DNA from: an uncultured Candidatus Saccharibacteria bacterium
Lineage (GTDB): Bacteria; Patescibacteriota; Minisyncoccia; Phycocordibacterales; CALRHW01
DNA length: 64,000 nucleotides
Direction: 5' to 3'
Assembly (NCBI GenBank): GCA_964407105.1
Contig: CAYOUG010000001.1
Coordinates: forward strand, 164,273 to 228,272
Shown here in pieces: positions 27,040 to 41,173 of this stretch (its first letter is position 1; the number at the start of each line of letters is the position of its first letter). A program made the position numbers and the translations under genes. The notes below the pieces were generated by a model that saw only the letters and a program-made list of their open reading frames with translations, was not told the origin of the DNA and did not search any database.

Positions 27040-28035
27040 ATGAAATTACCAAGCATTAAAATAATACTCGTTGCGATCACATGTGTTGCGGTAGTAAGTG
27101 CCATTTATGTTTTAATACAAAAAAATAATAAAACAGAAATAAATAGTGTAACCACAAACACACTTTCTCCAGAATTAGTAAGTTCAAGCGTAAAGGGTTC
27201 AGCTTACATCGACAGCGACAAAGACGGTTTGTACGATTGGGAAGAAATAATCTGGAAAACCGACCCGCTGAACCCAGATACAGATCAAGATGGCATTCTC
27301 GATGGGGAAGATGTAAAAAAAACACCATCATTTGATACCGCGACACAAAAACTTACAAAAACAGATGGTGTAAATGATATAAACACACAAACAGACTCAC
27401 CACAAAACCTAACCCTCACAGACAAAATCGCCCAAGCAGCATTTACACAGTACGCACTTTTAAAACAAAGTGGTAAAAAAATTACTGCAGATCAAGCGCA
27501 AGAAATTGCACACAACATTATTGCAAATCAACCGTTGGTGGAGGGCTTGAAAAAATTTACTGAATTAAATATTCCAAACAAAGTAGAAAATTCTTCGGAC
27601 AATATTTATACATACGGCAACGAGGTGTGGGATATTATGGTAAAAGACACGCCAAAAAATGTAAAACTTGAAAATGAATACACTATTCTACTTACCGCAC
27701 TTCAAAAAGAAGATGAGAAATATCTTGAAAAACTTGATCCAATTATTTTGGGTTATCAAAACACAATAAAAGATTTGCTTTCAATGAAGGTGCCCGCAGG
27801 CGCAGTTTCTGCTCATTTAAATTTTGTAAACAATATGAATGGCGTTCTTGCTTTCATTGAAGACATGCGCGCGTATTATAAAGATACTGCACGTGGTTTG
27901 GGTGCTGTAACGTACTATGGTGGGCAGGTGATAGAACTTCGTGCATCGCTTACACAATTAGTAGAATACTTTTCATCACAGGGTGTAGAATATGTGGAGG
28001 GCGAGAGTGGCTACCTACTAACGCATAGTATATAA
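27040..28035 (+). CDS. membrane-anchored protein with DxDxDG calcium-binding-like repeats
   Basis: N-terminal TM helix; DSDKDGLYDWEE and DPLNPDTDQDGILDGED thrombospondin-type-3-like motifs; first gene of a tight operon. Confidence 0.5.
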   Translation: MKLPSIKIILVAITCVAVVSAIYVLIQKNNKTEINSVTTNTLSPELVSSSVKGSAYIDSDKDGLYDWEEIIWKTDPLNPDTDQDGILDGEDVKKTPSFDTATQKLTKTDGVNDINTQTDSPQNLTLTDKIAQAAFTQYALLKQSGKKITADQAQEIAHNIIANQPLVEGLKKFTELNIPNKVENSSDNIYTYGNEVWDIMVKDTPKNVKLENEYTILLTALQKEDEKYLEKLDPIILGYQNTIKDLLSMKVPAGAVSAHLNFVNNMNGVLAFIEDMRAYYKDTARGLGAVTYYGGQVIELRASLTQLVEYFSSQGVEYVEGESGYLLTHSI

Positions 28036-28038
28036 TTA

Positions 28039-29013
28039 ATGGCAAAAGACATTACTGTGTCATCAATTTATTCTAAAAAATTATTTTTTACTGTTTTCTC
28101 TCTCGCTCTGTCTATCGGCTTTTTCATTCCTTTACATGTAAAGGCGCAAGTTGCTGTGCCTGTTGTTGAGCTTGTAGGATCTCCACTCCTAACCAATACG
28201 ATATTTATAATGGCAAGCACCGACGATATCGCTTGGAACACAGCGTATCTTGCTGCAAAAGAAACAGGAGTTGCAAAATATAAAAATATACCAATTACCG
28301 GAGTGCAAGTCGCTGCCGGAAGTACACTGAGCGCTGATTCAATTGCGACTACATTCCTCAAGCCACTCATCCGCAACATGACCAACTCGCTTGTACAATG
28401 GATAAACAGCGGTTTTCAAGGATCACCACTTTTTGTAAGCGATCCAGCAAAGTTTTTTATTGGTGTTGCAGATAGAATAGCGGGAAGTTTTATAGAGGGT
28501 TCAGATCTCGCATTTCTCTGTTCGCCTTTTTCTTTAAAAATAAGACTCGCGCTCAATTTAAATTATTCAGCACGTTTTCGTGATGAAATTGGTTGTACAC
28601 TTACAGATGTAGTAGAAAATATAGATAATTTTCAAAAAGATTTTACTCAGGGTGGATGGGATGCGTGGTTTAGCATGACACAAAATCCACAAAACAACGC
28701 ACAAGGTGCATATCTTTCTTCTCAAAGTCAGCTTGATATCCGTCTTGCAAGTGCGCTTGGTATAGAAGTGGCTCAGCTTGACTGGGGTCAAGGTTTTCTA
28801 TCTTTCAGAGACTGTGAAATTTATGATCAGACTGGAAAATGTATAAAATACGGCCCCACAAAAACACCCGGAACTGTTATCAATGGTCAGTTACAAGACG
28901 CACTAGGTACAGATCTTTCACAGCTCGAGCTTGCCGATGAATTTGATGAAATTGTAGCGGCGCTAGTAGGTCAGCTATTTAGCAAAATCCAACAGGGTTT
29001 GATCAACTCATAA
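28039..29013 (+). CDS. secreted hypothetical protein (operon member)
   Basis: Signal peptide ..IPLHVKAQVAV; start is 4 nt after the previous stop. Confidence 0.5.
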   Translation: MAKDITVSSIYSKKLFFTVFSLALSIGFFIPLHVKAQVAVPVVELVGSPLLTNTIFIMASTDDIAWNTAYLAAKETGVAKYKNIPITGVQVAAGSTLSADSIATTFLKPLIRNMTNSLVQWINSGFQGSPLFVSDPAKFFIGVADRIAGSFIEGSDLAFLCSPFSLKIRLALNLNYSARFRDEIGCTLTDVVENIDNFQKDFTQGGWDAWFSMTQNPQNNAQGAYLSSQSQLDIRLASALGIEVAQLDWGQGFLSFRDCEIYDQTGKCIKYGPTKTPGTVINGQLQDALGTDLSQLELADEFDEIVAALVGQLFSKIQQGLINS

Positions 29014-29014
29014 T

Positions 29015-31114
29015 ATGAAACGATTTTTTAGAAACAAAAAAACACGCTTCATCTTTGCAACACTTGTTGTGGCATTTTTCATATGTATTCCTCTAGTTAC
29101 TTTCGCAGAGGTCACTTCACCTTCATCACCAGCACCGGGGTGGTTTGGAACCGAAATTCTTGCTGCAGTAACTGGAGTTTTTAATAGACTCCTAGCCCTT
29201 GCTGGCGCATTTGCCATGATGCTCACAAGTTGGATTTTGTGGGCTTCCGGATCACTTCTTACTGAAGTATTGAAATACACCGTTCTGAACATGTCACAAA
29301 ATATTAATTCTATTAGCGCTATAAATGTTGCGTGGACAGTATTCAGAGATCTCGCAAACATGTTTTTCATTTTTATACTTCTTTATGCGGCCATCGGCAC
29401 CATTTTAGGTTTAAGCGGCGTCAATGCAAAAAAAATGGTCGTCAATATAGTTATTATTGCGCTTCTTATAAATTTCAGCTTATTTTTCACAAAAATAATT
29501 ATCGACGCATCAAACATCGTTACTATTGGTTTTTACAATAGAATAACCTCATCTATAGGAGAAAATGGTGGTCTTGCCACACCTTTTATGAACAAAATGG
29601 GGATAGTGGGTATGTTTAGTATTGATGGAATAATGTCTGATAGTGGTGCCTTATCATCAAACAAAACCCTCACAGAAATAGCGCTCACTGGAATAATGGG
29701 CTCCATATTTATTCTTGTAACCGCTTTCGTCTTTTTTGCTGCCAACATTATGTTTATTGGCCGATTTGTGATTTTGATATTTTTAATGATACTTTCTCCG
29801 CTTGCTTTTGCTGCAATGGCATTACCGAAAGATAAATATTCATCTGATTGGTGGAAGTCCTTACTTGATCAAGCGCTTTTTGCACCAGCCTTTTTAGCGA
29901 TGATGTATGCCACCTTACTCATTGTAGAGGGCTTAAATATACCAAATGCTGGTTTTGCAAAAGTATTTGTCCCTGGAGAAGATGGTAAGGCACCAGATCT
30001 TGCTATGGTACAGGTTCTTATGAATTACATAATTATCATAGTAATGATAATAGCCTGTCTTATTATTGCTAAAAAATTTGGCGCACACGGATCAGGTGAA
30101 ATGATCAAGCGTGGCCAAAAACTCCGTGGTTGGGCACAAGGTAAGGTAGGGAGGGGGGCTTTGCGAGGAACGGGTCTTGCTGCCCTTGATAGAAAATTTG
30201 CAGATTCAGATTTTGCAAAAACACGAACAGGTAACATTTTTCGCAGTATGACAACCGGCGCAATTACCAATGCAAAATTTGGCTCTGATACTTCAATACA
30301 AAAAGTAGATAAGGCAAACAAAGATCTTGATAAAAAATACAATGAGGGTGTAATGAAAGGTGTGGAGAAAAAATTTGAAAAAAGTTTGCCAGAACAACGA
30401 AAAAACTATATTGGCGATTTAAACAAAAAAATTGATGAATCTGGTACAAAAAAGTTTGAGACCGAAGCACAACTTATGACAAAACGAGAAGAGCTCGAAG
30501 ATGCTATCGCAAATGGAAAAGCAGTACGACCAGAAAGAGAACTACCTAAACTAGAACGAGAAATAACCGAAAGAGAAGGGCAGTTGCGTCGAGCTTCATC
30601 GGGCGGGCTAGCCATTCCTAAGAGTGAAATTGATCGTGTCAATACAGAAATTGCAGAAAGAAGAGAGAAGGTAAGAGTTACAAAAGAAATACAAAAACAA
30701 ATTGAAAATTTAAAAAAAGAGTCAGACACCACACAAAAAGAAATTAGTAGTTTTGAACAAGAAAAGAAAACTACTCAATCTAATATGGATGGTGGCTTTG
30801 TCGCTACAAAAAGCGAAAAGGGTCGTTGGTTAAATCAGGCATACGAAGAAAAAGCTAAAAGTCTCGAATCCTTGGGACCAACACTAGAAGCTGGTAAGAA
30901 AATGTTCCCCGGAACATCAAGAGTTATCGGTGCTCTTGGTAAACTTCGTCCAACATATCTAGATTTTGAAATGGGTCTAACAGCAAAAAAAGATGTCGTA
31001 AAAGAGTTGCGCAAAAAAACACAAGGTGGCGGTAAAGAAAAGGATATAATAAATCAACTTAAAGAATCTCTAAAAAATGCAGGTGAATTGGAAGATGGGG
31101 GAGAAAAAAAATAA
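29015..31114 (+). CDS. VirB6/TrbL-like polytopic membrane protein with a long charged coiled-coil C-terminus
   Basis: About 360-aa N-terminal region with six to eight TM helices then a roughly 340-aa K/E-rich coiled coil; topology and position upstream of PrgI-like/VirB4 genes. Confidence 0.5.
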   Translation: MKRFFRNKKTRFIFATLVVAFFICIPLVTFAEVTSPSSPAPGWFGTEILAAVTGVFNRLLALAGAFAMMLTSWILWASGSLLTEVLKYTVLNMSQNINSISAINVAWTVFRDLANMFFIFILLYAAIGTILGLSGVNAKKMVVNIVIIALLINFSLFFTKIIIDASNIVTIGFYNRITSSIGENGGLATPFMNKMGIVGMFSIDGIMSDSGALSSNKTLTEIALTGIMGSIFILVTAFVFFAANIMFIGRFVILIFLMILSPLAFAAMALPKDKYSSDWWKSLLDQALFAPAFLAMMYATLLIVEGLNIPNAGFAKVFVPGEDGKAPDLAMVQVLMNYIIIIVMIIACLIIAKKFGAHGSGEMIKRGQKLRGWAQGKVGRGALRGTGLAALDRKFADSDFAKTRTGNIFRSMTTGAITNAKFGSDTSIQKVDKANKDLDKKYNEGVMKGVEKKFEKSLPEQRKNYIGDLNKKIDESGTKKFETEAQLMTKREELEDAIANGKAVRPERELPKLEREITEREGQLRRASSGGLAIPKSEIDRVNTEIAERREKVRVTKEIQKQIENLKKESDTTQKEISSFEQEKKTTQSNMDGGFVATKSEKGRWLNQAYEEKAKSLESLGPTLEAGKKMFPGTSRVIGALGKLRPTYLDFEMGLTAKKDVVKELRKKTQGGGKEKDIINQLKESLKNAGELEDGGEKK

Positions 31115-31120
31115 AAAACA

Positions 31121-31870
31121 ATGGATGACTTTCAAATAAAAAAAATAATACAAGAACAGTGGGGTATACTTCCTGAAAACATTCAAAAACTTATTCTGTC
31201 CTCGGAATTTGATTCAAAAATCGAACAAATTTCTAGAAAATACAATCTTCTTGGAAATCAAACTGTTAACCTAAAAAATGAGATTGTTTTTGTGCTTCTT
31301 GGTCTTGTTCATCTTATGGATTTTACCCAAAATCTAGAGCATGAACTTGCAATTCCAAAAGAACAGGCACGCTTACTAGCTCAAGAGGTTGGCGCACAGA
31401 TATTTGCCAATGTAAAAGAATCTCTCAGGGAACTTGGCAAAACACTCGAATTGGAAAATGCTCAAGATTCTCAGAATTCATTGGGTACAGACCAGCAAAA
31501 ACCAACAAATCAAAACGTTCCACCCCCAATCGCAACGGTACAAGGAGTACACATGCAAAAAGAATCGCTCACCCCAGAAACACAAGACAGTATAATTACT
31601 GCTAGCGCGAATGTAGAAAAGGAAGAGGGGAACGTGCAAACAGGTATTGTAGAAGACGTTGCATCATTAAACAAAGAAACCTTACTTAAAGAAATAGAAT
31701 CTCCAGCTCTCATTACCGCCCACGCATCAACCCCAGAATACGAACCAACAATAATAGATAAAAAACTTAGTGGCATAATGAAAGTGCCACGCGAAGAGGT
31801 GCGTGTAAATGTAGATGCAAACACACCAAGCTATAAAGGTACCGATCCATACCGTGAACCTTTAGAATAA
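31121..31870 (+). CDS. soluble acidic hypothetical protein (operon member)
   Basis: No TM helix; lies between the VirB6-like and PrgI-like genes. Confidence 0.45.
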   Translation: MDDFQIKKIIQEQWGILPENIQKLILSSEFDSKIEQISRKYNLLGNQTVNLKNEIVFVLLGLVHLMDFTQNLEHELAIPKEQARLLAQEVGAQIFANVKESLRELGKTLELENAQDSQNSLGTDQQKPTNQNVPPPIATVQGVHMQKESLTPETQDSIITASANVEKEEGNVQTGIVEDVASLNKETLLKEIESPALITAHASTPEYEPTIIDKKLSGIMKVPREEVRVNVDANTPSYKGTDPYREPLE

Positions 31871-31874
31871 AATT

Positions 31875-32300
31875 ATGAGATTTCAAGTCCCACAATTTAC
31901 TGACGTTGAAGATAAAATTTTTGGCGCACTCACTTTTAAGCAGTTTATATATCTTGCTGGAAGCGCTGGAGCATGCGTCATTTTGTACTACATCATTCCG
32001 TTCAAAATTATTTCTTTCATGTTTATGTTTCCGATAATCGCTTTCGGCCTTGCTTTAGCATTTTACAAAGTAAACAATAAACCTTTTATTCGTGTAGTAG
32101 AAGCATTTTTTAAATATTCAGTCACAAGCAAACTATATATTTGGAAACATGAACCCAAAAAAATAACGGCAATGTCTACTCCAAAAGAATTTTCGTCATC
32201 TTTTTTACCAAAACTTTCAGAAAGTAAGCTAAAAGATCTCACCTGGACACTTGACGTTACAGAAAATATAAACAAAAAGGTTCCTTCTGATTTTAAATAA
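31875..32300 (+). CDS. PrgI/VirB3-like small membrane protein
   Basis: 141 aa with two central TM helices; immediately precedes VirB4 as in Gram-positive-type T4SS. Confidence 0.5.
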   Translation: MRFQVPQFTDVEDKIFGALTFKQFIYLAGSAGACVILYYIIPFKIISFMFMFPIIAFGLALAFYKVNNKPFIRVVEAFFKYSVTSKLYIWKHEPKKITAMSTPKEFSSSFLPKLSESKLKDLTWTLDVTENINKKVPSDFK

Positions 32301-32327
32301 AAGGAATATAGGATATAATTTCTAAAT

Positions 32328-32972
32328 ATGGCAACCAATGCACGAGCTTCTCAAGAATTTGTGCCGATTAATGACATTCAAAATGGCATTGTCACTTTAA
32401 AAGACGGCTCATTACGTGCTGTACTTATGGCATCTTCTGTAAATTTTTCTCTTAAATCAGAAGAAGAGCGTGCAGCCATCATGTTTCAATTTCAAGATTT
32501 TTTAAACTCTCTTGATTTCACTGTACAAATTTTTATTCAATCACGACGTCTAGACATTCGTCCATACATTAATCTTCTTGAAGAACGCAAGAAAGCGCAA
32601 GTAAACGATCTCATGAAAATTCAGGTGGAAGAATATATTGGTTTTATCAAAAACTTTACCGACAACACCAATATTATGACTAAACATTTTTTCATAATCG
32701 TGCCGTATTCTCCTGCAATTCTTCAAAAGGGTGGCAATAATCCCGTCACTGGTTTATTTAAAAATAAAAAAAATGATGAAGAGATAAAAATTAATACACA
32801 AGAGGCATTCGAGGAACGACGCACTCAGCTAGAACAACGTTTGGCGGTGGTGGAGCAGGGGCTTGTCCGCTCAGGAGTACGTGTAGTACAGCTTGGAACA
32901 GAAGAAATCGTCGAACTTTTTTACAAAATTTTCAATCCCGGCGAAGCAGAGAAACCAATTCACATTCAATAA
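32328..32972 (+). CDS. VirB4-family N-terminal domain (separate ORF)
   Basis: EFVPINDIQNGIVTLKDGSLRAVLMASSVNFSLKSEEER resembles the VirB4/TrsE/TcpF N-terminus; its stop is 1 nt before the ATG of the ATPase ORF, which is in a different frame. Confidence 0.6.
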   Translation: MATNARASQEFVPINDIQNGIVTLKDGSLRAVLMASSVNFSLKSEEERAAIMFQFQDFLNSLDFTVQIFIQSRRLDIRPYINLLEERKKAQVNDLMKIQVEEYIGFIKNFTDNTNIMTKHFFIIVPYSPAILQKGGNNPVTGLFKNKKNDEEIKINTQEAFEERRTQLEQRLAVVEQGLVRSGVRVVQLGTEEIVELFYKIFNPGEAEKPIHIQ

Positions 32973-32973
32973 T

Positions 32974-34788
32974 ATGAGCTTTTTAGAAAATATATTTGGT
33001 GGTAAAAAGAAAGAGGAAACAGTAGGAATGCTTCCTCAGGAAATTTATCAAGCGCAAACACTTGAATTAAAAGATATTATCGCACCAAGCGCCCTAAAAA
33101 TTGCTCCAAAAGAACTAAATTTAGGAGATAAAATTGTACGAACATTTTTTGTTATTTCATACCCGCGTTTTCTTGGTGAAAGTTGGTTTGCGCCAATTAT
33201 TAATCTTGACCGTGTTTTTGATGTCTCTATTTTTATACATCCAGTAGACACAGTGAAAGTTTTGAGACAATTTCAAAAAAAGGTGGCTGAGGTGCAAAGT
33301 CAGATTCATGAACGAGAAGACAAGGGAATGGTGCGTGACCCAATGCTTGATACCGCATATCAAGATCTCGAAAATCTTCGTGATAGTTTACAGCAAGCAC
33401 AAGAAAAACTTTTTGATGTTGGTTTGTACATTTCCATTTATGCAGAAAGTGATGCTGAACTCGATAAAATCGAATCAGAAATACGATCCATTCTTGAATC
33501 AAAGCTTGTTTACGTAAAACCCGCACTTTTCCAACAAGAACAAGGCTATAAAAGCGTGCTTCCTATTGGTACGGACATTCTTGAGGTGCATTCAAAGCTC
33601 AATTCTTCACCGCTTTCAAGTCTTTTTCCTTTTATTTCTTTTGATCTTACGTCTGATAAAGGAATTTTGTATGGTATCAATCGCCACAATTCAAGTCTTG
33701 TACTTTTTGATCGTTTCTCACTTGAAAATTACAACTCTATTACTTTCGCAAAGTCTGGTTCTGGAAAATCTTACGCAACAAAGCTAGAAATTTTGCGTAC
33801 CCTTATGTTTGATACCGAAGTTATAGTTATTGACCCTGAACGAGAATATGAATATATGGCTGAGGCTGTTGGTGGAAGATACTTTAAAATTTCCCTCAAC
33901 TCCGAACACCACATTAATCCATTTGATCTACCCCTTCCAGGAGAGGGTGAGTCTGGAGAAAGCGTGCTTAGAAGTAATATTATCAATCTTGTGGGTCTTT
34001 TTAGGCTTATGCTTGGTGGTATTAGTGCAGAAGAAGACGCAATTATCGACAGAGCAATTACAGAAACATACGCATTAAAAGACATCACGGCCCAGTCTAA
34101 TTTTGCAAATATAGATCCACCACTAATGTCTGATTTCGAGCTTGTGTTGGGGGGAATGGAGGGTGGGGAATCACTAGCGCAACGTCTTACTAAATACACG
34201 AGAGGTACGTGGGCTGGGTTTATCAATCGTCCTACAAATATTGATATTAATAAAAAGTTTATTGTGTTTTCGTTGCGCGACATGGAAGACGAGCTCAAAC
34301 CTATCGCCATGTACATTGTGATGCACTATATTTGGAGTGCAATTCGCAAAGAACTTAAAAAACGCCTCTTGGTAATAGACGAGGCGTGGTGGATGATGAA
34401 ATCCGAAGACACGGCCTCGTTTCTCCTCTCACTCGCTAAACGCGGCCGAAAATATTACCTCGGCCTAGCCACCATCACCCAAGACGTTGACGATTTCCTC
34501 AAGTCTCCATACGGAATGCCGATTATCACCAACTCCTCAATTCAAATTTTACTCAAACAATCTCCAACATCTATAGACAAGCTCCAACAAACATTCAACC
34601 TCACCGACGAAGAAAAATATTTACTCCTTGAAAGCTCGGTAGGAGAGGGAATTTTCTTTGCTGGCCTAAAACACGTCGCAATAAAAATTATTGCATCGTA
34701 TACCGAAGATCAAATCATTACATCCGACCCATCTCAAGTGCTTTCTATTCAACAAGCAAAACGCGATCTGGAACAGTCTCAACAATAA
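32974..34788 (+). CDS. VirB4/TrbE-family T4SS ATPase (ATPase domain)
   Basis: Walker A GSGKSYAT, Walker B LLVIDEAWWMM and the conserved C-terminal region. Confidence 0.8.
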   Translation: MSFLENIFGGKKKEETVGMLPQEIYQAQTLELKDIIAPSALKIAPKELNLGDKIVRTFFVISYPRFLGESWFAPIINLDRVFDVSIFIHPVDTVKVLRQFQKKVAEVQSQIHEREDKGMVRDPMLDTAYQDLENLRDSLQQAQEKLFDVGLYISIYAESDAELDKIESEIRSILESKLVYVKPALFQQEQGYKSVLPIGTDILEVHSKLNSSPLSSLFPFISFDLTSDKGILYGINRHNSSLVLFDRFSLENYNSITFAKSGSGKSYATKLEILRTLMFDTEVIVIDPEREYEYMAEAVGGRYFKISLNSEHHINPFDLPLPGEGESGESVLRSNIINLVGLFRLMLGGISAEEDAIIDRAITETYALKDITAQSNFANIDPPLMSDFELVLGGMEGGESLAQRLTKYTRGTWAGFINRPTNIDINKKFIVFSLRDMEDELKPIAMYIVMHYIWSAIRKELKKRLLVIDEAWWMMKSEDTASFLLSLAKRGRKYYLGLATITQDVDDFLKSPYGMPIITNSSIQILLKQSPTSIDKLQQTFNLTDEEKYLLLESSVGEGIFFAGLKHVAIKIIASYTEDQIITSDPSQVLSIQQAKRDLEQSQQ

Positions 34789-34795
34789 AAACTTT

Positions 34796-35224
34796 ATGGA
34801 ATCAAAACTCACCACCCTAACAGCCGGACTAATGATCACAGTAGCTGTGATTTTTGATATTATTCAAGCACTTCTTGATTTGCTTCACTTTATACCGCTT
34901 GTGGGAAACATATTTGCAATTATTTCCACCTCACTGCTTTCTGTTTTCGCGTGGCTCACATTCTATTTGTGGATGAAAATAAAAGGAATAGATTTTGCAA
35001 GCCCAAAACGCTCGCTTAGTCTTGGTGGTGGTTTTATTTTTGAACTTATTCCAATATTAAATGCTCTTCCGGGATGGACACTTGCTGTAATACTTATTAT
35101 TGGAAGTATGCGTGCTGAAGAATTGATTGCAAAAACCACAGGTATAAACGTAAATATTTCTTCTGGAGTATCGCCGATACCAAATCCAACACAAGCTATT
35201 AAAAACACACCATTGAACAAATAG
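34796..35224 (+). CDS. small polytopic membrane protein (operon member)
   Basis: Three to four TM helices; 8 nt after the VirB4 stop. Confidence 0.45.
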   Translation: MESKLTTLTAGLMITVAVIFDIIQALLDLLHFIPLVGNIFAIISTSLLSVFAWLTFYLWMKIKGIDFASPKRSLSLGGGFIFELIPILNALPGWTLAVILIIGSMRAEELIAKTTGINVNISSGVSPIPNPTQAIKNTPLNK

Positions 35225-35241
35225 TGTATCGTGCTAAAATT

Positions 35242-36264
35242 ATGAAGTACTCTTTGTATATGCTCCATTCTTCTATAAAAATAATATGTGTGACACTTGT
35301 TTTGTTTTTTGCATGCACACTAAGTGCGTCCGCTCAATTGGGCAATCCATCAGCAGAAAGCGTGCAGTTTTTTATTACACCAGAAAATCCTGGATCAAAT
35401 GAACTTGTAAAAATCAGGGTGGAAAGTTTTACATCAGACCTAAATTCAAAAGAAATTACTTGGTCACTAAATGATAAAATCCAAAAAAAAGCGGTGGGCG
35501 ACAAAAATTTTGAGTTTACTACCGGCCCACTTGGAAGTGTCTCTAAAATAACCTTTTCTACAAACACAATAACTAAAAGTGTAACCCTACGCCCAGTAGA
35601 TCTTTTTATAACTTGGCAAACCAACACCTACACACCACCTTTTTATAAAGGAAAAGCAGTGTACACCAACCAAAGCTCAATACAGTTTGTGGCACTTCCT
35701 ATGTTTGTTGGATCAAATGGAAAAACAATAGATCCAAAAAATTTAATATATAAATGGACAAGAGACGACTCCGTACTCAACAACGAATCTGGCTATGGAA
35801 AACAGGTCCTTTCTACTAGCGGTGGAACACTCGCAAAACCAATATTAATTAATCTTGAGGTTACGAGTGCCGACGGACTACTTAAAGCGAAAAGAGAAAT
35901 CGAGGTTGAAGGAAATCTTCCAAGAATTATATTTTACGAAAATCATCCACTCTACGGAATCACGTATCGCAATGCATTACCAGACATCTTTACACTCACA
36001 AGTAAAGAAATAAGTCTTGTCGCCGCACCTTATTTTTTTGATATAAGTGGAAAATTAGACTCAAATCTTTCATATGTATGGAAAATGAATGGGGAAGTCA
36101 TAGAAAATCAAGAAAATCCATCAACACTTACACTTCGAAGACCTGAGGGTTCTGCTGGTGGCAAAGCAAATATATCTCTTATGACTTCTCACCTTGCAAA
36201 AATTATTCAATTTACAAACAAATCTTTAGATATTAATTTTGAAGCTCTAAATATTTCCGATTAA
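35242..36264 (+). CDS. secreted protein with three Ig-like beta-rich repeats
   Basis: Signal peptide; three roughly 100-aa repeats. Confidence 0.5.
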   Translation: MKYSLYMLHSSIKIICVTLVLFFACTLSASAQLGNPSAESVQFFITPENPGSNELVKIRVESFTSDLNSKEITWSLNDKIQKKAVGDKNFEFTTGPLGSVSKITFSTNTITKSVTLRPVDLFITWQTNTYTPPFYKGKAVYTNQSSIQFVALPMFVGSNGKTIDPKNLIYKWTRDDSVLNNESGYGKQVLSTSGGTLAKPILINLEVTSADGLLKAKREIEVEGNLPRIIFYENHPLYGITYRNALPDIFTLTSKEISLVAAPYFFDISGKLDSNLSYVWKMNGEVIENQENPSTLTLRRPEGSAGGKANISLMTSHLAKIIQFTNKSLDINFEALNISD

Positions 36265-36269
36265 AATAT

Positions 36270-37115
36270 ATGATAAAAAACGCAAAAAAATATCTTGGTT
36301 TTATAATAATTTTGATAACTATTTTAAGTATACATGGTGCTTTTTTAACAAAAACGACTTTTGCAGAGCTTGAATCTGGTGGCACCACAGGAGGTTTTAC
36401 AAATTACAAACCCCTTATTCCACTTCCAATTGGACCAAACGGTAGCAACGAAACACCTACAGAACTTTCAAAATACCTACCTGCAATGTTTCAATTTTTT
36501 ATAGGTATTGCTGGAGTACTTGCTGTGGTAATGATCGTAATTGGTGGAATACAATATATGTCTACTGATGCGGTCTATGGTAAAAGTGCTGGAAAAGAAA
36601 AAATCGCTCAAGCACTTGGTGGACTTTTGCTCGCTATTGTTGCTTGGCTTATTCTTTATTCCATCAACCCAAATCTTTTAAATACAGTTCTTGGTGGGCC
36701 AAATACACAAATGGCCAGTTCAACACCAACAAACCCAATACCACACACAGCAAGAGTAACGTATCACGTACAAAACACATATGGACCACCAACAACCGAG
36801 TGTAAAAGTACATATCCATCACCACAAGCATGTGCACAATCACTTACACAACTAGAAGCATCATATCCAACGCCACCATATGCCAACGTATCTGTTGGTT
36901 GTGATGTTGAGTGCAATCCAACACCTCCACCCCCACCATATTCACTTATGGTTACCTATCATGTACAGGGCATACCAGGACCACCAAAAGTAGCCTGTTA
37001 CCCTTATACTGGTCCCGTAGAATGTCAAACAGCATCTGAAAACTTTGATCAATCAGACCAACCAACATGGATTATTCACAACGAAATTTGTACTCAAGAG
37101 TGTACAGAACAATAA
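36270..37115 (+). CDS. VirB2/TrbC-like pilin candidate with a C-terminal tandem Cys-containing repeat
   Basis: Long signal peptide then two hydrophobic helices separated by a short loop (LPAMFQFFIGIAGVLAVVMIVIGG / KIAQALGGLLLAIVAWLILY); C-terminal repeats RVTYHVQNTYGPPTTEC and MVTYHVQGIPGPPKVAC. Confidence 0.5.
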   Translation: MIKNAKKYLGFIIILITILSIHGAFLTKTTFAELESGGTTGGFTNYKPLIPLPIGPNGSNETPTELSKYLPAMFQFFIGIAGVLAVVMIVIGGIQYMSTDAVYGKSAGKEKIAQALGGLLLAIVAWLILYSINPNLLNTVLGGPNTQMASSTPTNPIPHTARVTYHVQNTYGPPTTECKSTYPSPQACAQSLTQLEASYPTPPYANVSVGCDVECNPTPPPPPYSLMVTYHVQGIPGPPKVACYPYTGPVECQTASENFDQSDQPTWIIHNEICTQECTEQ

Positions 37116-37118
37116 ACC

Positions 37119-38357
37119 ATGCTTAAAAAAATTATTATCGTCATAGCTATTATTATCTTACTCGCTTTAGGCGCATTTACTTATCTTTATTTCACATCAC
37201 CAGAAAGCCTTAACTCAATCACAAGCAATGTGGGAATAAACGTGTCAGACTTTTTTCCTTTTGGACAAGAGCCCACAACACCAACAAACACCACAAACAA
37301 TTCTTCGGGAGACACCCCTCCAAACACAACGCCGGCCCAATTACGACAAATATATTCTTCTCCTGTATCTGGTGGGCAGTTTTTCAATATAAACAACAAC
37401 ACCGCTGTGCGTTTTGTGGAACAGTCAACAGGCAACGTATATGAAGCGAATACAGAAAATACGGCCATAGAACGCATCACCAACACCACAATTCCAAAAG
37501 TAACAGAAGCTACTTTTGTAACAAAAGATAGTGTGCTTTTGCGATTTTTACGAGACGATAGTGATCTTATTGAAACTGTATACGGCACAATAAGCACAAC
37601 AACATCTACAAGCACGGTGCAAAGTGAGTTTGCAGACCTTCAAACAACATTTCTCTTTCCAAACATCAAAGACCTTGTTGTTTCTCCTAAAAAAGATAAG
37701 GTTTTTTACATAAATCAATTTTCGATTGGCGCTCTAGGTACCATTGCAAGTCCTAATGGTTCAAATAAGACTGTGGCGTTTGAATCTCCAATTCGTGAGT
37801 GGAACACGCAGTGGCCGACCACCACCACACTAGCACTCACCACAGCGCCAAGTGCACAGGTATCAGGATATTTATATTTCGTAAACACCACCACAGGCAC
37901 GCAACAAAAAATATTAGCAAATATTCCAGGACTAACCACTCTCACAAACACAAACACTTCGAGCGTGCTCTACACAAAAAATAATCTCAAAGGAAGTTTT
38001 TCCCTAAATTTACTTAACACAAAAACAGGAACATCAACCCTTCTTTCTTTTGGTCAAACATTACCAGAAAAATGTGTGTGGAGTAAAAAAAATGTAAACG
38101 TAATGTATTGTGCGGTGCCAAAAGTTATACCAAAAGGGGAATATCCTGATATTTGGTATATGGGTCTTGTTTCTTTTAGTGACAAACTCTGGCGTATCAA
38201 CACAGAAACCAACGAAACAGATATGCTTGTCGATCTTGAAAGTGTGTCTGGACGAACACTCGATGCTATAAAACTTTCTTTGGATACAAATGAAAACTAT
38301 ATTCTGTTTACAAACAAAGCTGACTCAACCTTGTGGAGTTTCGCACTAAATAAATAA
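37119..38357 (+). CDS. membrane-anchored Thr/Asn-rich extracytoplasmic protein (last gene of the operon)
   Basis: N-terminal TM helix, low-complexity TPTNTTNNSSGDTPPNTTP linker, beta-rich C-terminal domain. Confidence 0.5.
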   Translation: MLKKIIIVIAIIILLALGAFTYLYFTSPESLNSITSNVGINVSDFFPFGQEPTTPTNTTNNSSGDTPPNTTPAQLRQIYSSPVSGGQFFNINNNTAVRFVEQSTGNVYEANTENTAIERITNTTIPKVTEATFVTKDSVLLRFLRDDSDLIETVYGTISTTTSTSTVQSEFADLQTTFLFPNIKDLVVSPKKDKVFYINQFSIGALGTIASPNGSNKTVAFESPIREWNTQWPTTTTLALTTAPSAQVSGYLYFVNTTTGTQQKILANIPGLTTLTNTNTSSVLYTKNNLKGSFSLNLLNTKTGTSTLLSFGQTLPEKCVWSKKNVNVMYCAVPKVIPKGEYPDIWYMGLVSFSDKLWRINTETNETDMLVDLESVSGRTLDAIKLSLDTNENYILFTNKADSTLWSFALNK

Positions 38358-38401
38358 AACAAAAAGATTTTCTCCGCTTTATATTTTATTTTTGAGGTTT
38401 A

Positions 38402-39181
38402 TTATTTCTTAATGTTTCTTTTGAGTACCAATTCTTGTCCGATAGTAAATAAATTACTCGTAATCCAATAAAGTGCGATTGCTGCGGATATTCCATAAGA
38501 GATGAATCCGGCGATAATCGGGAATACATAGATCATTTGTACGCGCATACTACGTGCAAGATCGTGTTTAAATGAATCTGTATTGGTTTTGCCCTGTGTC
38601 TCAGTTTTTTGCTGTGTTTTTGGAGCCATTAATTTTGCTTGAAAAAACGTAGAAATAGCCACAAGCACAGCAAGCACAATACTTTTTGAAGAAATATCTA
38701 TAAGTCCCAAAAACATCATATTAATATAATTGGGAATACCCACAAAACCATATAAAAGTTCTTTGTTTACTGTTGGTAAACCTGAATGCCAAAATATTCT
38801 ATAAAGGGCAAAAATTATTGGTAATTGAATAAATATAAGCAAAATACTCATAAAAGGCCGCACACCTCTTTCTTTGTAAAGTTGCATCGTCTTTCGAGCT
38901 TGTTCTTGTTTATCATCCTTAAACTGTTCACGAATTATTTGAAGCTCTGGTTCTATTTGCTTCATCTGAATCTGTGTTGTGACGGCTTTTTTGGAAAGAG
39001 GGAATAGAATAAGTTTGATTATGATTGTAAACAAAATTACCGCAATTCCAGCATCCACCCAAGGAATTAGATTAATCAACAAAATAAGTCCGTTATAAAG
39101 AGGCTGGTAAACAATTGTGTGGTATATATTTGATATCATCAGGTTATTGTAACTTACGGTGGAAGCATTTTCAAACCACAC
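38402..39181 (-). CDS. yidC: membrane protein insertase YidC/Oxa1 family (short form)
   Basis: Five TM helices and the conserved ..KQIEPELQIIREQFKDDKQE..MQLYKERGVRPF.. region. Confidence 0.85.
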   Translation of the reverse strand: MWFENASTVSYNNLMISNIYHTIVYQPLYNGLILLINLIPWVDAGIAVILFTIIIKLILFPLSKKAVTTQIQMKQIEPELQIIREQFKDDKQEQARKTMQLYKERGVRPFMSILLIFIQLPIIFALYRIFWHSGLPTVNKELLYGFVGIPNYINMMFLGLIDISSKSIVLAVLVAISTFFQAKLMAPKTQQKTETQGKTNTDSFKHDLARSMRVQMIYVFPIIAGFISYGISAAIALYWITSNLFTIGQELVLKRNIKK

Positions 39182-39510
39182 TACATAAGACGAGCTTTGT
39201 GAAAAAGTTCCTCTATTTCAGACTGTAAAACAGCGAAGGTTATTTTATTAGCTCCTTGTTTTGCAGAAATAACAGTATGTGATGTTTTTTTTATTTGTGG
39301 CAATAGCACACGTATTACCGCATACACACGTCTACGCACTCTGTTTCTGTCTACAGCGCTCTGTGCAACCTTTTTTGAAACAAGAGCGGCATAACCCTCT
39401 TTGGAGGCCGAGATTGTTCGTAATAAGAAGTGGGGGGAATTTTGCAATAAACCCAAAGAAAGAATGCGTCCAAAAGAATCTCTAGGGATCCTTTTTTGTT
39501 TAGGTAGCAT
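39181..39510 (-). CDS. rnpA: ribonuclease P protein component
   Basis: 109 aa, basic; RNR motif region AVDRNRVRRRVYAV; located between rpmH and yidC. Confidence 0.8.
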   Translation of the reverse strand: MLPKQKRIPRDSFGRILSLGLLQNSPHFLLRTISASKEGYAALVSKKVAQSAVDRNRVRRRVYAVIRVLLPQIKKTSHTVISAKQGANKITFAVLQSEIEELFHKARLM

Positions 39511-39538
39511 ATATAAAAGGAGATTATGCTCTCAGGCC

Positions 39539-39673
39539 TTAAACCGTGAGTCTAGCTCGACCTTTTGCTCGTCTTCGATTGACGGTTTTTTTACCACCAG
39601 CCGTTCGTTTTCGCTTAAGAAAACCGTGTGATTTAGCGCGTTTTCGTTTTTTAGGATTATATGTAAAAGACAT
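39539..39673 (-). CDS. rpmH: 50S ribosomal protein L34
   Basis: Hand translation MSFTYNPKKRKRAKSHGFLKRKRTAGGKKTVNRRRAKGRARLTV (44 aa); not in the ORF table because it is shorter than 60 aa. Confidence 0.9.
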   Translation of the reverse strand: MSFTYNPKKRKRAKSHGFLKRKRTAGGKKTVNRRRAKGRARLTV

Positions 39674-39817
39674 ATGACAGGAGTATATAGGAGAAATTAT
39701 ATTTATTCAAGTAAAAGTCTATTTTTTTGTTATACACAAGATATGCACAGTGTATCAACATATTTGTACCTTAAATACAAGTACGAAGTGTTTACCTATC
39801 ATATATAATAGTTCGAT

Positions 39818-41173
39818 ATGGATAGTAAAAAAATCTGGGAGAGTGTACTTGTGGATATAGAAATTAATGTTTCTAAGGCAAATTTCAATACTTGGTTCAA
39901 AGATACTTATATATATAAATTTGAAGATGGGGTGGTGTATTTGAGTGTGCCAAATAATTTTGTAAAGGAGTGGCTTCTTAAAAAATTTCACTCATATATA
40001 TTAAAGGCTTTGCGCGGACTATCAGAAAACGTTCGGTCGCTTGACTATATAGTAAGTAGGGGAGATATAAAGAAAAAAGAACCTGATCACATAAAAGGAT
40101 TAAACACTTTAGCTGAAAGCACAAACGAACTACCTTTAAATGAATTTTATATCAACAAAGACGATAATTTGAATCCAAAATACACCTTTGATTCTTTTAT
40201 TATCGGCCCATTCAACGAACTTGCTCACGCAGCAGCGCAAGCGATTATTAAAAAACCAGGAATTGTTTATAATCCACTTTTTGTTTACGGCAACACCGGA
40301 CACGGAAAAACCCACCTTATACAAGCAATAGGTAACCACATGAAACATACTTATCCTGAACGTAAGATACATTACCTTACATCAGAAAAATTTGCTGTTG
40401 ATTATATAAATTCAGTTCAAAATCAAAAAGTAAACAATTTCAAAGAAAAATATAGAAAATATGACGTTCTTATAATGGACGATATTCAATTTCTTTCAAA
40501 TAAAGAGAGGACTCAGGAAGAATTATTCCATTTGTTTAATTTTCTCTACGACAACAATAAGCAAATTATTTTTTCTTCAGACAAACATCCAAACTATATT
40601 CCACAACTCGAGGAACGTCTTAAATCGCGCTTTGGTGCTGGTATGATAGTAGACATTCCTCCTCCAGACGAAGAATCACGCGCAGCTATTTTGACTGCAA
40701 AACTAAAACAACACAACCTAGAACTACCAAAAGAGGTGCTTGCTTATCTTGCACAAACACTTTCTACAAACATTAGAGAGCTTGAGGGTGCTTTAAATGG
40801 GGTAATGATGCAAATGCAACTAAAACAAAAAGAAGTTACTCTTAATGATGTAAAAAACCTTCTTAAAAACAACACAAAACCAAAGAAAAATCTTTCACCA
40901 AAAGAAATAATAAAAATAATCGCTGATTTTTATAATATCAATGAAGAAAGTATTTATGAAAAAACAAGAAAAAAGGAAATAATAAAACCACGCCAAATTA
41001 CTATGTATATTTTACGAGAAGATTTTAATATCTCTTACCCATCAATAGGGGAGAAAATGGGAGGGCGAGACCACACTACAGTTATTCATTCGTGTGAAAA
41101 AATAAAAAACGACCTTAAATTAAATACTGACTTGGCGCAGGAGATAAATCAGATTAGATCAATGTTTGTTTGA
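39818..41173 (+). CDS. dnaA: chromosomal replication initiator protein DnaA
   Basis: AAA+ Walker A GNTGHGKTHL, Walker B LIMDDIQF, sensor motifs and C-terminal DNA-binding domain. Confidence 0.95.
   Translation: MDSKKIWESVLVDIEINVSKANFNTWFKDTYIYKFEDGVVYLSVPNNFVKEWLLKKFHSYILKALRGLSENVRSLDYIVSRGDIKKKEPDHIKGLNTLAESTNELPLNEFYINKDDNLNPKYTFDSFIIGPFNELAHAAAQAIIKKPGIVYNPLFVYGNTGHGKTHLIQAIGNHMKHTYPERKIHYLTSEKFAVDYINSVQNQKVNNFKEKYRKYDVLIMDDIQFLSNKERTQEELFHLFNFLYDNNKQIIFSSDKHPNYIPQLEERLKSRFGAGMIVDIPPPDEESRAAILTAKLKQHNLELPKEVLAYLAQTLSTNIRELEGALNGVMMQMQLKQKEVTLNDVKNLLKNNTKPKKNLSPKEIIKIIADFYNINEESIYEKTRKKEIIKPRQITMYILREDFNISYPSIGEKMGGRDHTTVIHSCEKIKNDLKLNTDLAQEINQIRSMFV

What the first reader, a model, noticed from the sequence alone, without database searches (positions are those of the whole stretch)
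36270..37115. VirB2-like pilin fused to a C-terminal duplicated Cys-containing module
After a classic T4SS-pilin topology (long signal peptide, two hydrophobic helices), the protein continues for about 130 aa. This extension holds two repeats (ARVTYHVQNTYGPPTTEC... and LMVTYHVQGIPGPPKVAC...) with conserved Cys spacing and a polyproline linker. That is an unusual decoration for a pilin and could be a tip or adhesin module.
Basis: seen in the sequence. Interest (0 to 1): 0.55.

Follow-up and report, generated by a model that had tools for sequence, protein, structure and literature searches.

The report
Secretion-system pilin with swappable outer head
This gene encodes the only pilin-like protein of a type IV secretion operon in an ultra-small (Patescibacteria) bacterium, and it carries an extra cysteine-locked double domain outside the cell. 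Related species carry unrelated modules, often cell-wall-cutting enzymes, at the same position, which gives a clue to what this essential but unexplained machine does.

Summary
ORF 36270-37115 (+) encodes 281 aa: a signal peptide, two hydrophobic helices matching Pfam T4SS_pilin (PF18895, above its cut-off), a Pro/Thr linker and two ~57-aa repeats, each with C-x8/9-C...C-x3-C, joined by a polyproline stretch (repeat z = 6.7).

It is the only pilin gene in the window. It sits in a PrgI/VirB4 operon next to yidC-rnpA-rpmH and dnaA. That gene order recurs in nearly all of 80 related Patescibacteria loci.

The C-terminal module folds with high confidence (pLDDT 90.8) into two beta-beta-alpha-beta units. 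It has no Pfam match, no PDB sequence match and no specific fold match. A profile search of 1.84 billion representative proteins found it only in a handful of pilin fusions with the same layout.

The decoration is not unusual in this clade. In 62 of 85 pilin ORFs at these loci, at least 100 aa follow the core. These modules are unrelated to each other and include M15/VanY, SLT, NlpC/P60, YkuD, Ig-like and dockerin domains.

Best reading: a non-enzymatic head exposed on every pilin subunit. It is not a tip protein. Adhesion is plausible but untested.

It is a new variant of a known kind.

The parts
36270..37115 (+). Whole gene: pilin core plus C-terminal double module (281 aa plus stop)
   Evidence: The exact protein is in public data as P0001.
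36270..36365 (+). Sec-type signal peptide, residues 1-32 (MIKNAKK, hydrophobic stretch, TFA|E); no lipobox
   Evidence: Hydropathy and charge. Homologues have A-x-A-like sites at the aligned position. The cleavage site is inferred, not predicted by a dedicated tool.
36405..36428 (+). Conserved mature N-terminal motif YKPLIPLP (residues 46-53)
   Evidence: Y46, P48, L49 and P51 are invariant in 18 family members.
36477..36569 (+). Pilin helix 1 (residues 70-100), including the GGIQYMSTDA motif
   Evidence: Hydropathy, PF18895 match over residues 72-130, AF2 helix 66-98.
36570..36599 (+). Short basic loop AVYGKSAGKE (residues 101-110), predicted cytoplasmic
   Evidence: K+R 2 against D+E 1 here; the flanking exposed parts are net acidic. 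Positive-inside rule (inference).
36600..36671 (+). Pilin helix 2 (residues 111-134), ending in the conserved INP motif
36672..36743 (+). Pro/Thr-rich flexible linker (residues 135-158)
   Evidence: pLDDT below 50 for residues 141-153 in the full-length model; composition.
36744..36914 (+). Repeat 1 (residues 159-215): beta-beta-alpha-beta unit, Cys 178/188/211/215
36915..36938 (+). Polyproline connector NPTPPPPP (residues 216-223)
36939..37103 (+). Repeat 2 (residues 224-278): beta-beta-alpha-beta unit, Cys 243/252/274/278
29015..31114 (+). 699-aa polytopic membrane protein of the operon; candidate VirB6/PrgH-like component (not verified by any profile)
   Evidence: Several hydrophobic segments in residues 1-360. 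Only weak DUF hits. Conserved in the related loci.
31875..32300 (+). PrgI (VirB3-like) protein
   Evidence: PF12666, E 4.3e-10, 40.4 bits against a cut-off of 27.
32328..32972 (+). Separate VirB4 N-terminal (TraC/TrsD-like) domain protein
   Evidence: NCBIfam VirB4_plasma, CD1110 and TrsD hits below their cut-offs. PF26593 TraC-like in orthologues.
32974..34788 (+). VirB4 ATPase, P-loop part (604 aa)
   Evidence: PF19044 P-loop_TraG, E 3.9e-28. ATG at 32974 checked.
34796..35224 (+). 142-aa membrane protein, conserved operon member, function unknown
35242..36264 (+). 340-aa secreted or anchored protein directly upstream of the pilin; conserved partner, function unknown
   Evidence: no Pfam or NCBIfam family.
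37119..38357 (+). 412-aa N-terminally anchored protein directly downstream (3-nt gap); present in almost all related loci whatever the pilin's C-terminal module
38402..39181 (-). yidC, followed by rnpA and rpmH; marks the replication-origin region together with dnaA (39818-41173, +)

Best explanation
The gene encodes the single VirB2-like pilin of a chromosomal, origin-adjacent type IV secretion (T4SS-like) operon of a Patescibacterium; the named relatives are mostly Paceibacteria/Parcubacteria-group genomes.

Shown:
- The protein has a signal peptide, a two-helix pilin core that matches PF18895, a flexible Pro/Thr linker, and a confidently folded C-terminal module of two tandem beta-beta-alpha-beta units with four invariant cysteines each.
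- Related genomes keep the same operon slot and a conserved core but carry unrelated C-terminal modules there, many of them peptidoglycan-cutting enzymes.

Inferred:
- After Sec/YidC insertion and signal-peptidase cleavage near residue 32, the hairpin sits in the membrane with its basic loop inside.
- The acidic C-terminal 125 aa is then outside, where the cysteines form two disulfides per unit.
- When VirB4 and its partners assemble the cores, whether as a fibre or a short conduit, every subunit displays this module on the outer face.
- No catalytic-type residue is conserved (invariant columns are the cysteines, one Ser and one Tyr), and the module evolves about twice as fast as the core. It most likely acts as a non-enzymatic recognition or attachment head for the envelope of the host cell. 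It would be one allele of a hypervariable head position that recombination exchanges.
For: - Pilin identity: PF18895 at 28.9 bits against a cut-off of 26.6. All 18 of 18 relatives match PF18895, and 5 of 18 also match TrbC/VirB2 weakly. NCBIfam gives a 'pilin-like conjugal transfer protein' of Mycoplasma ICEs at E 2e-6, below its cut-off.
- Context: PrgI, a split VirB4 and a polytopic protein lie upstream; yidC and dnaA lie next to the operon.
- It is the only pilin in the window.
- Topology: hydropathy and charge distribution.
- Fold: the C-terminal model has pLDDT 90.8 and pTM 0.73, with two b-b-a-b units.
- All 8 Cys are invariant in 8 homologues, and there is no conserved His/Asp/Glu.
- The core is 54-85% identical while the extension is 21-64% identical.
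- The slot is orthologous in nearly all of 80 loci, with extensions of 1 to 1163 aa.
- The extensions include Peptidase_M15_4, VanY, SLT, NlpC/P60, YkuD, Big and dockerin domains.
- 17 of 24 pilin pairs with at least 80% core identity have BLAST-unrelated extensions.
- In L051, two pilin genes share a 313-nt stretch that is 100% identical and covers just the core, with different modules on either side.
- Literature: T4SS pilins are essential in S. epibionticum and are highly expressed in Paceibacteria co-cultures (PMC10633639, PMC10936435).
Against: - No pilus has been seen for any Patescibacterial T4SS, and polymerisation of a 249-aa mature subunit is untested.
- Binding is inferred from the lack of catalytic residues and from position only; no ligand is known.
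- Four cysteines per unit could also form a metal site. I could not read the model coordinates to measure S-S distances.
- Classical VirB2/TrbC pilins are trimmed at the C-terminus, so the module might be cut off.
- Only 64 kb of the genome was examined; other pilin genes may exist elsewhere.
Confidence: 0.5

Rival explanations
1. Carrier-and-release. The pilin core serves as a membrane-anchored export handle. The C-terminal module is cleaved off in the linker and released, or handed to the host, as a free effector or ligand, much as the C-termini of classical TrbC/VirB2 pilins are removed during maturation.
For: A roughly 24-aa disordered Pro/Thr linker separates core and module (pLDDT below 50). 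In relatives the same position holds soluble enzymes such as SLT, M15/VanY, NlpC/P60 and YkuD, which could act at a distance. C-terminal processing of RP4 TrbC and Ti VirB2 is established knowledge (from memory, not tested here).
Against: No conserved cleavage motif is evident after the INP motif (alignment). No homologue of a pilin-processing peptidase was looked for or seen. A Sec signal alone would be enough to export a soluble protein, so the conserved core (100% identical DNA in L051) suggests the core itself matters to the module's function.
Confidence: 0.2
2. Static anchor. The protein never polymerises. The pilin-like hairpin only anchors it in the membrane at or near the T4SS channel, as VirB2 is needed in systems that make no pilus. 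The module is then a cell-surface domain with a structural or self-envelope role, such as spacing or wall contact.
For: Gram-positive-type (MPF-FATA) T4SSs generally lack pili (PMC12102498, PMC12857230). A 14-kDa head on every subunit may hinder helical packing. Weak similarity to the Mycoplasma ICE membrane protein family Mbov_0396, in which a similar hairpin sits at model positions 50-107 of 306.
Against: The core is far more conserved than a simple anchor needs to be: GGIQYMSTDA and other columns are invariant. It is also kept identical between paralogues with different heads, which suggests core-core or core-machine contacts.
Confidence: 0.2
3. Metal-binding module. The four cysteines of each repeat coordinate a metal ion (Cys4 site) instead of forming disulfides, giving a metal-dependent fold or sensor.
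For: Each repeat has two closely spaced Cys pairs, including C-x3-C.
Confidence: 0.07
4. Unrelated membrane protein or lipoprotein whose hydrophobic helices merely resemble a pilin, or a non-coding artefact.
For: Two-helix hairpins are generic. Foldseek on the full model and a PDB profile search found no pilin structure.
Against: No lipobox. PF18895 is above its cut-off in this protein and is matched in 18 of 18 relatives. There is fixed synteny with PrgI and VirB4 in nearly all of 80 loci. The ORF and its cysteines are conserved across homologues.
Confidence: 0.03

Closest known systems
VirB2-like pilins of Patescibacteria (Pfam PF18895 T4SS_pilin; the essential pilin array of Southlakia epibionticum; surveyed by Quinonero-Coronel et al. 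2025, PMC12102498)
   Same: Same profile family. Same operon partners (PrgI/VirB3, VirB4, polytopic protein). No relaxase or coupling protein was seen among the operon genes scanned. Same position next to dnaA, rnpA and ksgA as that paper reports for Paceibacteria.
   Different: Those papers describe pilins as small subunits, often in arrays of 2-11 divergent copies. They do not mention C-terminal domains. Here there is one pilin gene per operon, and its variability lies in a fused C-terminal module.
Classical conjugative pilins VirB2 / TrbC / TraA (Pfam PF04956)
   Same: Signal peptide, two hydrophobic helices, a short basic loop, and dependence on a VirB4-type ATPase operon. Recurrent weak profile similarity: E 0.03 here, best 7.7e-4 among relatives.
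   Different: Below the curated cut-off. The mature protein is about 249 aa rather than about 70-80. The 125-aa folded C-terminal module rules out head-to-tail cyclisation unless it is removed. The organism belongs to a group the literature describes as monoderm.
Mycoplasma ICE proteins Mbov_0395 ('pilin-like conjugal transfer protein') and Mbov_0396 (ICE transmembrane protein), NCBIfam NF045849 / NF045889
   Same: Best NCBIfam matches to the core: E 2.2e-6 and 9.6e-4. In NF045889 the hairpin sits at model positions 50-107 of 306, so that family also has a long region after the hairpin. This fits the MPF-FATA ancestry proposed for the Patescibacterial T4SS.
   Different: Both scores are below the curated cut-offs (27.2 against 40; 18.7 against 70). 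There is no similarity in the C-terminal module. Those proteins sit on mobile elements, whereas this operon is chromosomal and next to the origin.
Type IV pilus (T4P) major pilins, as an analogy of design only
   Same: A conserved hydrophobic assembly element plus a variable, disulfide-stabilised globular head exposed on the fibre surface, with fast evolution and recombination of the exposed part (established knowledge of T4P pilins).
   Different: Unrelated sequence and fold. An ordinary Sec signal peptide instead of the prepilin-peptidase signal. A two-helix hairpin instead of one long N-terminal helix. T4SS context, not T4P.
Polymorphic toxin / contact-dependent effector families (CdiA-CT, Rhs, MafB type): conserved N-terminal delivery part with swappable C-terminal modules
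   Same: Near-identical cores carry unrelated C-terminal modules. Many of the modules in relatives are cell-wall hydrolases.
   Different: There is no variable immunity gene. The pilin is followed after 3 nt by a 412-aa gene that is present in almost all related loci whatever the head. The module in this window has no enzyme signature.

Membership tests
Pfam PF18895 T4SS_pilin (Patescibacterial VirB2-like pilins) | Profile match at or above the curated gathering score | tested here: met
   28.9 bits against a cut-off of 26.6, residues 72-130. 18 of 18 relatives match at E up to 0.1.
Pfam PF18895 T4SS_pilin (Patescibacterial VirB2-like pilins) | Signal peptide followed by two hydrophobic helices joined by a short basic loop | tested here: met
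   Hydropathy segments at residues 7-30, 69-102 and 110-137; loop AVYGKSAGKE. AF2 helices at 66-98 and 105-132.
Pfam PF18895 T4SS_pilin (Patescibacterial VirB2-like pilins) | Encoded next to VirB4 and PrgI/VirB3 in a T4SS cluster | tested here: met
   PrgI at 31875-32300 and VirB4 at 32974-34788. The same order is seen in nearly all of 80 loci.
Pfam PF18895 T4SS_pilin (Patescibacterial VirB2-like pilins) | Assembles into an extracellular fibre or conduit | not testable with these tools
   No multimer prediction or imaging was available. No such structure is reported in the papers read.
Classical TrbC/VirB2 pilins (Pfam PF04956) | Profile match at or above the curated gathering score | tested here: not met
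   15 bits against a cut-off of 27.9, E 0.03. 5 of 18 relatives match weakly, best E 7.7e-4.
Classical TrbC/VirB2 pilins (Pfam PF04956) | Small mature subunit (about 70-80 aa) ending shortly after helix 2 | tested here: not met
   About 147 aa follow helix 2, of which 125 are confidently folded. Whether they are removed could not be tested.
Classical TrbC/VirB2 pilins (Pfam PF04956) | Similarity to solved pilin structures | tested here: inconclusive
   Foldseek on the full model: best E 1.0, generic helical hairpins only. PDB profile search: no hit. Hairpins are too simple for these methods.
   There is no Cys before residue 178. The c-region reads TKTTFA|E.
Any described domain family for the C-terminal module (Pfam, NCBIfam, PDB) | Significant sequence-profile or fold match | tested here: not met
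Polymorphic toxin-type systems | Conserved N-terminal part with unrelated C-terminal modules among close relatives | tested here: met
   17 of 24 pairs with at least 80% core identity differ in extension class. The L051 paralogues share 313 nt at 100% identity, limited to the core.
Polymorphic toxin-type systems | Cognate, co-varying immunity gene directly downstream | tested here: not met
   The next gene starts 3 nt after the stop. It is the 412-aa protein that is present in almost all related loci whatever the head.
Polymorphic toxin-type systems | Toxic or enzymatic C-terminal domain | tested here: not met
   The only invariant residues in this module are Cys, one Ser and one Tyr, and it has no enzyme family hit. 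Relatives do carry hydrolase domains.

The most novel reading that the evidence does not exclude
The single pilin slot of the origin-adjacent T4SS operon in this Patescibacterial clade is a polymorphic display or delivery locus. A strongly conserved VirB2-like core, kept identical by recombination, serves as the assembly scaffold. Its C-terminus carries exchangeable heads that are matched to the host envelope: binding modules such as this orphan double-disulfide domain, or peptidoglycan hydrolases. That would make the Patescibacterial T4SS fibre an organelle for attaching to and breaching the host cell wall. It would also be a kind of modular pilin not described for any T4SS.
Probability: 0.35. 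Interest if true: 0.8.

Novelty: new variant of a known kind. Interest (0 to 1): 0.6.

Why it matters
Patescibacteria are a large share of bacterial diversity and live attached to other cells. In the one species tested genetically, their T4SS and its pilins are essential, yet a 2024 perspective states that the role of the system is 'completely unknown' (PMC11665869; PMC10633639).

Three results here turn that open question into concrete experiments. The one pilin of a conserved operon carries an exposed, fast-evolving, swappable head. In many related species that head is a cell-wall-cutting enzyme. In this genome it is an orphan disulfide-locked double domain.

The experiments that follow are to ask what the heads bind or cut, whether head type tracks host type, and whether the fibre displays them.

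The module itself is a small, confidently predicted fold without described relatives.

Tried and rejected
- Word-index homologue search with the C-terminal 137 aa alone: no hit, not even the protein itself. I take this as a limit of the index on a Pro/Thr-rich query. The exhaustive profile search replaced it.
- The afdb50 fold library was not available.
- Foldseek with the full-length model and PDB profile searches did not find solved pilins. This is uninformative for a helical hairpin.
- The FimA fimbrial subunit hit (E 0.09) is rejected as chance.
- P0073, a 675-aa repeat protein, was the seventh hit of the profile search. I rejected it as spurious: 9 short matches to one Cys motif.
- A single-repeat HMM found no further members among 70 family proteins and all ORFs of 85 loci. 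Single-module relatives such as P0013, P0020 and P0052 cannot be claimed as homologous.
- Promoter and terminator scans were at chance level.
- Rfam found only tRNAs.
- The lipoprotein and 'tip subunit' readings were rejected (see membership tests).
- dN/dS was not attempted. The nearest homologue is 62% identical, so synonymous sites would be saturated. The cluster at 90% identity or more differs by only three substitutions.

Full report
**Observation**

The window has an ATG-initiated ORF at 36270-37115 on the + strand that encodes 281 aa. It starts 5 nt after the preceding gene and ends 3 nt before the next, so it lies inside an operon.

Hydropathy gives three hydrophobic segments: residues 7-30, 69-102 and 110-137. 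The first follows a basic N-terminus (MIKNAKK) and ends in TKTTFA|E. Homologues have A-x-A-type sites at the aligned position. I therefore read it as an ordinary Sec signal peptide of about 32 aa. There is no lipobox; the first cysteine is residue 178.

After the third segment come about 147 further residues, rich in Pro, Thr and Gln and holding 8 cysteines. Two repeats are present:
- Both contain VTYHVQ (residues 163-168 and 228-233), then GPP.
- Repeat 1 then has C-x9-C, 22 residues and C-x3-C. Repeat 2 has C-x8-C, 21 residues and C-x3-C.
- NPTPPPPP lies between the repeats.

Their local alignment scores 65, against 28.3 +/- 5.5 for shuffles (z = 6.7).

**The N-terminal half**

Pfam T4SS_pilin (PF18895) matches residues 72-130 at 28.9 bits, above its cut-off of 26.6. 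TrbC/VirB2 (PF04956) is the second hit at E 0.03, below its cut-off.

All 18 aligned relatives match PF18895, and 5 of them also match TrbC weakly, best E 7.7e-4. NCBIfam's best hits are the 'pilin-like conjugal transfer protein' and a transmembrane protein of Mycoplasma ICEs. Both are below their cut-offs.

Charges fit a pilin topology. The loop between the helices is basic (AVYGKSAGKE). The mature N-terminus and the C-terminal extension are acidic; the extension has K+R 3 against D+E 11. The extension is therefore predicted to lie outside the membrane.

**Context**

The genes upstream on the same strand are:
- a 699-aa polytopic protein (29015-31114), a candidate VirB6/PrgH analogue that no profile verified;
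- a 249-aa protein (31121-31870);
- PrgI/VirB3 (31875-32300);
- a separate VirB4 N-terminal domain protein (32328-32972);
- the VirB4 P-loop protein (32974-34788);
- a 142-aa membrane protein (34796-35224);
- a 340-aa secreted or anchored protein (35242-36264).

These assignments rest. Downstream lies a 412-aa anchored protein. After it come yidC-rnpA-rpmH on the other strand, then dnaA and dnaN.

This is the origin-adjacent, Gram-positive-like T4SS described for Patescibacteria (PMC12102498). I saw no relaxase or coupling protein among the operon genes I scanned. A profile of the pilin core finds no second pilin in the 64-kb window.

The exact protein is in public data. All named relatives are labelled as Patescibacteria: Paceibacterota, Zambryskibacteria or the Parcubacteria group.

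**The C-terminal module**

Predicted on its own with 8 homologues, residues 156-281 fold with pLDDT 90.8 and pTM 0.73. The model has two beta-beta-alpha-beta units. The full-length model shows the same units behind a disordered linker.

All 8 cysteines are invariant. The only other invariant residues are one Ser and one Tyr, so there is no sign of a catalytic site.

No described family matches the module:
- Pfam: nothing at E up to 0.1.
- NCBIfam: nothing on the extension.
- PDB sequence profile: only a chance-level FimA hit, E 0.09.
- Foldseek: best E 1.1.

An exhaustive profile search of 1.84 billion representative proteins returned 7 hits. Six are real, and all are 279-363-aa pilin fusions with the module in the same place. 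One of them, P0072, has three repeats. A single-repeat HMM adds no further members.

Repeat 1 is closest to repeat 1 of the other proteins, and repeat 2 to repeat 2 (69/59% in P0002, 41/50% in P0003). The duplication is therefore old. In P0007 the two repeats are 51% identical to each other.

The module evolves about twice as fast as the core: 21-64% identity against 54-85%.

**The wider pattern**

A scan of one genome per species found 80 loci that encode related pilins. In nearly all of them the gene order is the same as here: polytopic protein, 249-aa protein, PrgI, VirB4 N-domain, VirB4, 142-aa protein, 340-aa protein, PILIN, 412-aa protein, yidC, dnaA. There is usually one pilin in the slot.

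What follows the pilin core ranges from 1 to 1163 aa. Of 85 pilin ORFs, 62 have at least 100 aa after the core and 17 have at most 30; the median is 175.

The extensions fall into many unrelated classes. Recognisable domains are Peptidase_M15_4 (4), SLT (4), VanY (3), NlpC/P60 (3), dockerin/EF-hand (2), Extensin-like_C (2), Big_13, Big_6 and YkuD. The largest class (14 members) ends in an H-x-H motif typical of LAS-type peptidases.

Close cores often carry different heads. Of 24 pairs with at least 80% core identity, 17 have BLAST-unrelated extensions. BLAST can miss distant relatedness, so this figure is an upper estimate.

In locus L051, two pilin genes share a 313-nt stretch that is 100% identical and covers exactly the core. 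Their C-terminal parts are unrelated: one has a YkuD-like motif and the other an SLT-like motif.

**Mechanism**

Shown:
- pilin-family core;
- T4SS operon membership;
- single pilin in the window;
- confidently folded, Cys-invariant tandem module without described relatives;
- hypervariable heads at an orthologous slot.

Inferred:
- signal-peptidase cleavage near residue 32;
- loop-in, termini-out topology;
- two disulfides per unit;
- display of the module on every assembled subunit;
- a binding rather than catalytic role, directed at the host envelope.

I put this at 0.5. The rivals are release of the module after cleavage in the linker (0.2), a non-polymerising anchor at the T4SS (0.2), a Cys4 metal site instead of disulfides (0.07), and an unrelated membrane protein (0.03, contradicted).

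The 'tip' idea is unlikely, because no other pilin is present to form the shaft.

From general knowledge, not tested here: peptides fused to the C-terminus of F-pilin can be displayed on F pili, so an exposed C-terminus is compatible with assembly in at least one classical system.

**Comparison with what is known, and novelty**

The papers I could search describe Patescibacterial VirB2-like pilins, their arrays, their essentiality and their high expression. None mentions C-terminal domains on them.

One preprint notes that PF18895 dominates freshwater-specific structure clusters. That fits many different heads on one core.

The protein is a member of PF18895. It is not a member of PF04956 at the curated threshold. 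It resembles polymorphic toxin systems in modular exchange but lacks a co-varying immunity gene, and in this window it lacks an enzyme head.

I rate it a new variant of a known kind, interest 0.6. The most novel reading not excluded is that the pilin slot is a polymorphic display or delivery locus for attaching to or breaching the host wall (probability about 0.35).

Noticed in passing
L051:7554-8912 and L051:10297-11346: Two pilin genes in one Paceibacterota genome share a 313-nt stretch that is 100% identical and covers exactly the pilin core. The parts before and after are unrelated: one ends in a YkuD-like domain and the other in an SLT-like domain. This suggests recent recombination or gene conversion confined to the core.
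   Followed up: partly
L006-L085 (pilin slot of 80 related loci): The C-terminal extension of the pilin at this slot is hypervariable, from 1 to 1163 aa. It often holds peptidoglycan-active domains: M15_4, VanY, SLT, NlpC/P60, YkuD. [quoted passage not shown]
   Followed up: partly
window 32328-32972 and 32974-34788: VirB4 is encoded as two adjacent genes: a 214-aa TraC/TrsD-like N-terminal domain protein and a 604-aa P-loop protein. The same split is seen in nearly all related loci.
   Followed up: partly
window 27040-41173: The whole T4SS-like operon abuts yidC-rnpA-rpmH and dnaA-dnaN, with ksgA and a UvrD-type helicase upstream. It is therefore chromosomal and next to the replication origin, as reported for Paceibacteria.
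   Followed up: yes
P0044, P0047, P0050; L019, L020, L029, L034, L061: Some family members have the pilin core at the very C-terminus and an N-terminal extension of about 100-300 aa instead. P0044, P0047 and P0050 have a precomputed annexin (PF00191) hit. So both ends of the core accept extra modules.
   Followed up: no
L018 (DATGWK010000074.1): This record is titled 'Candidatus Nanoarchaeia archaeon' but carries the same bacterial pilin locus, including yidC and dnaA. It is probably a mis-binned or mislabelled contig.
   Followed up: no
window 27040-28035: The first gene of the operon (331 aa, signal anchor) has weak hits to bacterial TSP3 calcium-binding repeats and to the gliding-motility lipoprotein CglD. 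Both are below their cut-offs. Its orthologues show the same weak TSP3 hit.
   Followed up: no
window 36744-37112 (as a protein query): The word-index homologue search with the C-terminal 137 aa returned nothing, not even the identical public protein. The exhaustive profile search did find the homologues. This is a sensitivity gap of the tool for Pro/Thr-rich queries.
   Followed up: yes
P0072 (363 aa): One homologue appears to carry a third copy of the Cys module, visible by eye in the sequence. The repeat HMM scores that third copy only at chance level (domain E 66). Repeat number therefore seems to vary within the small family.
   Followed up: partly
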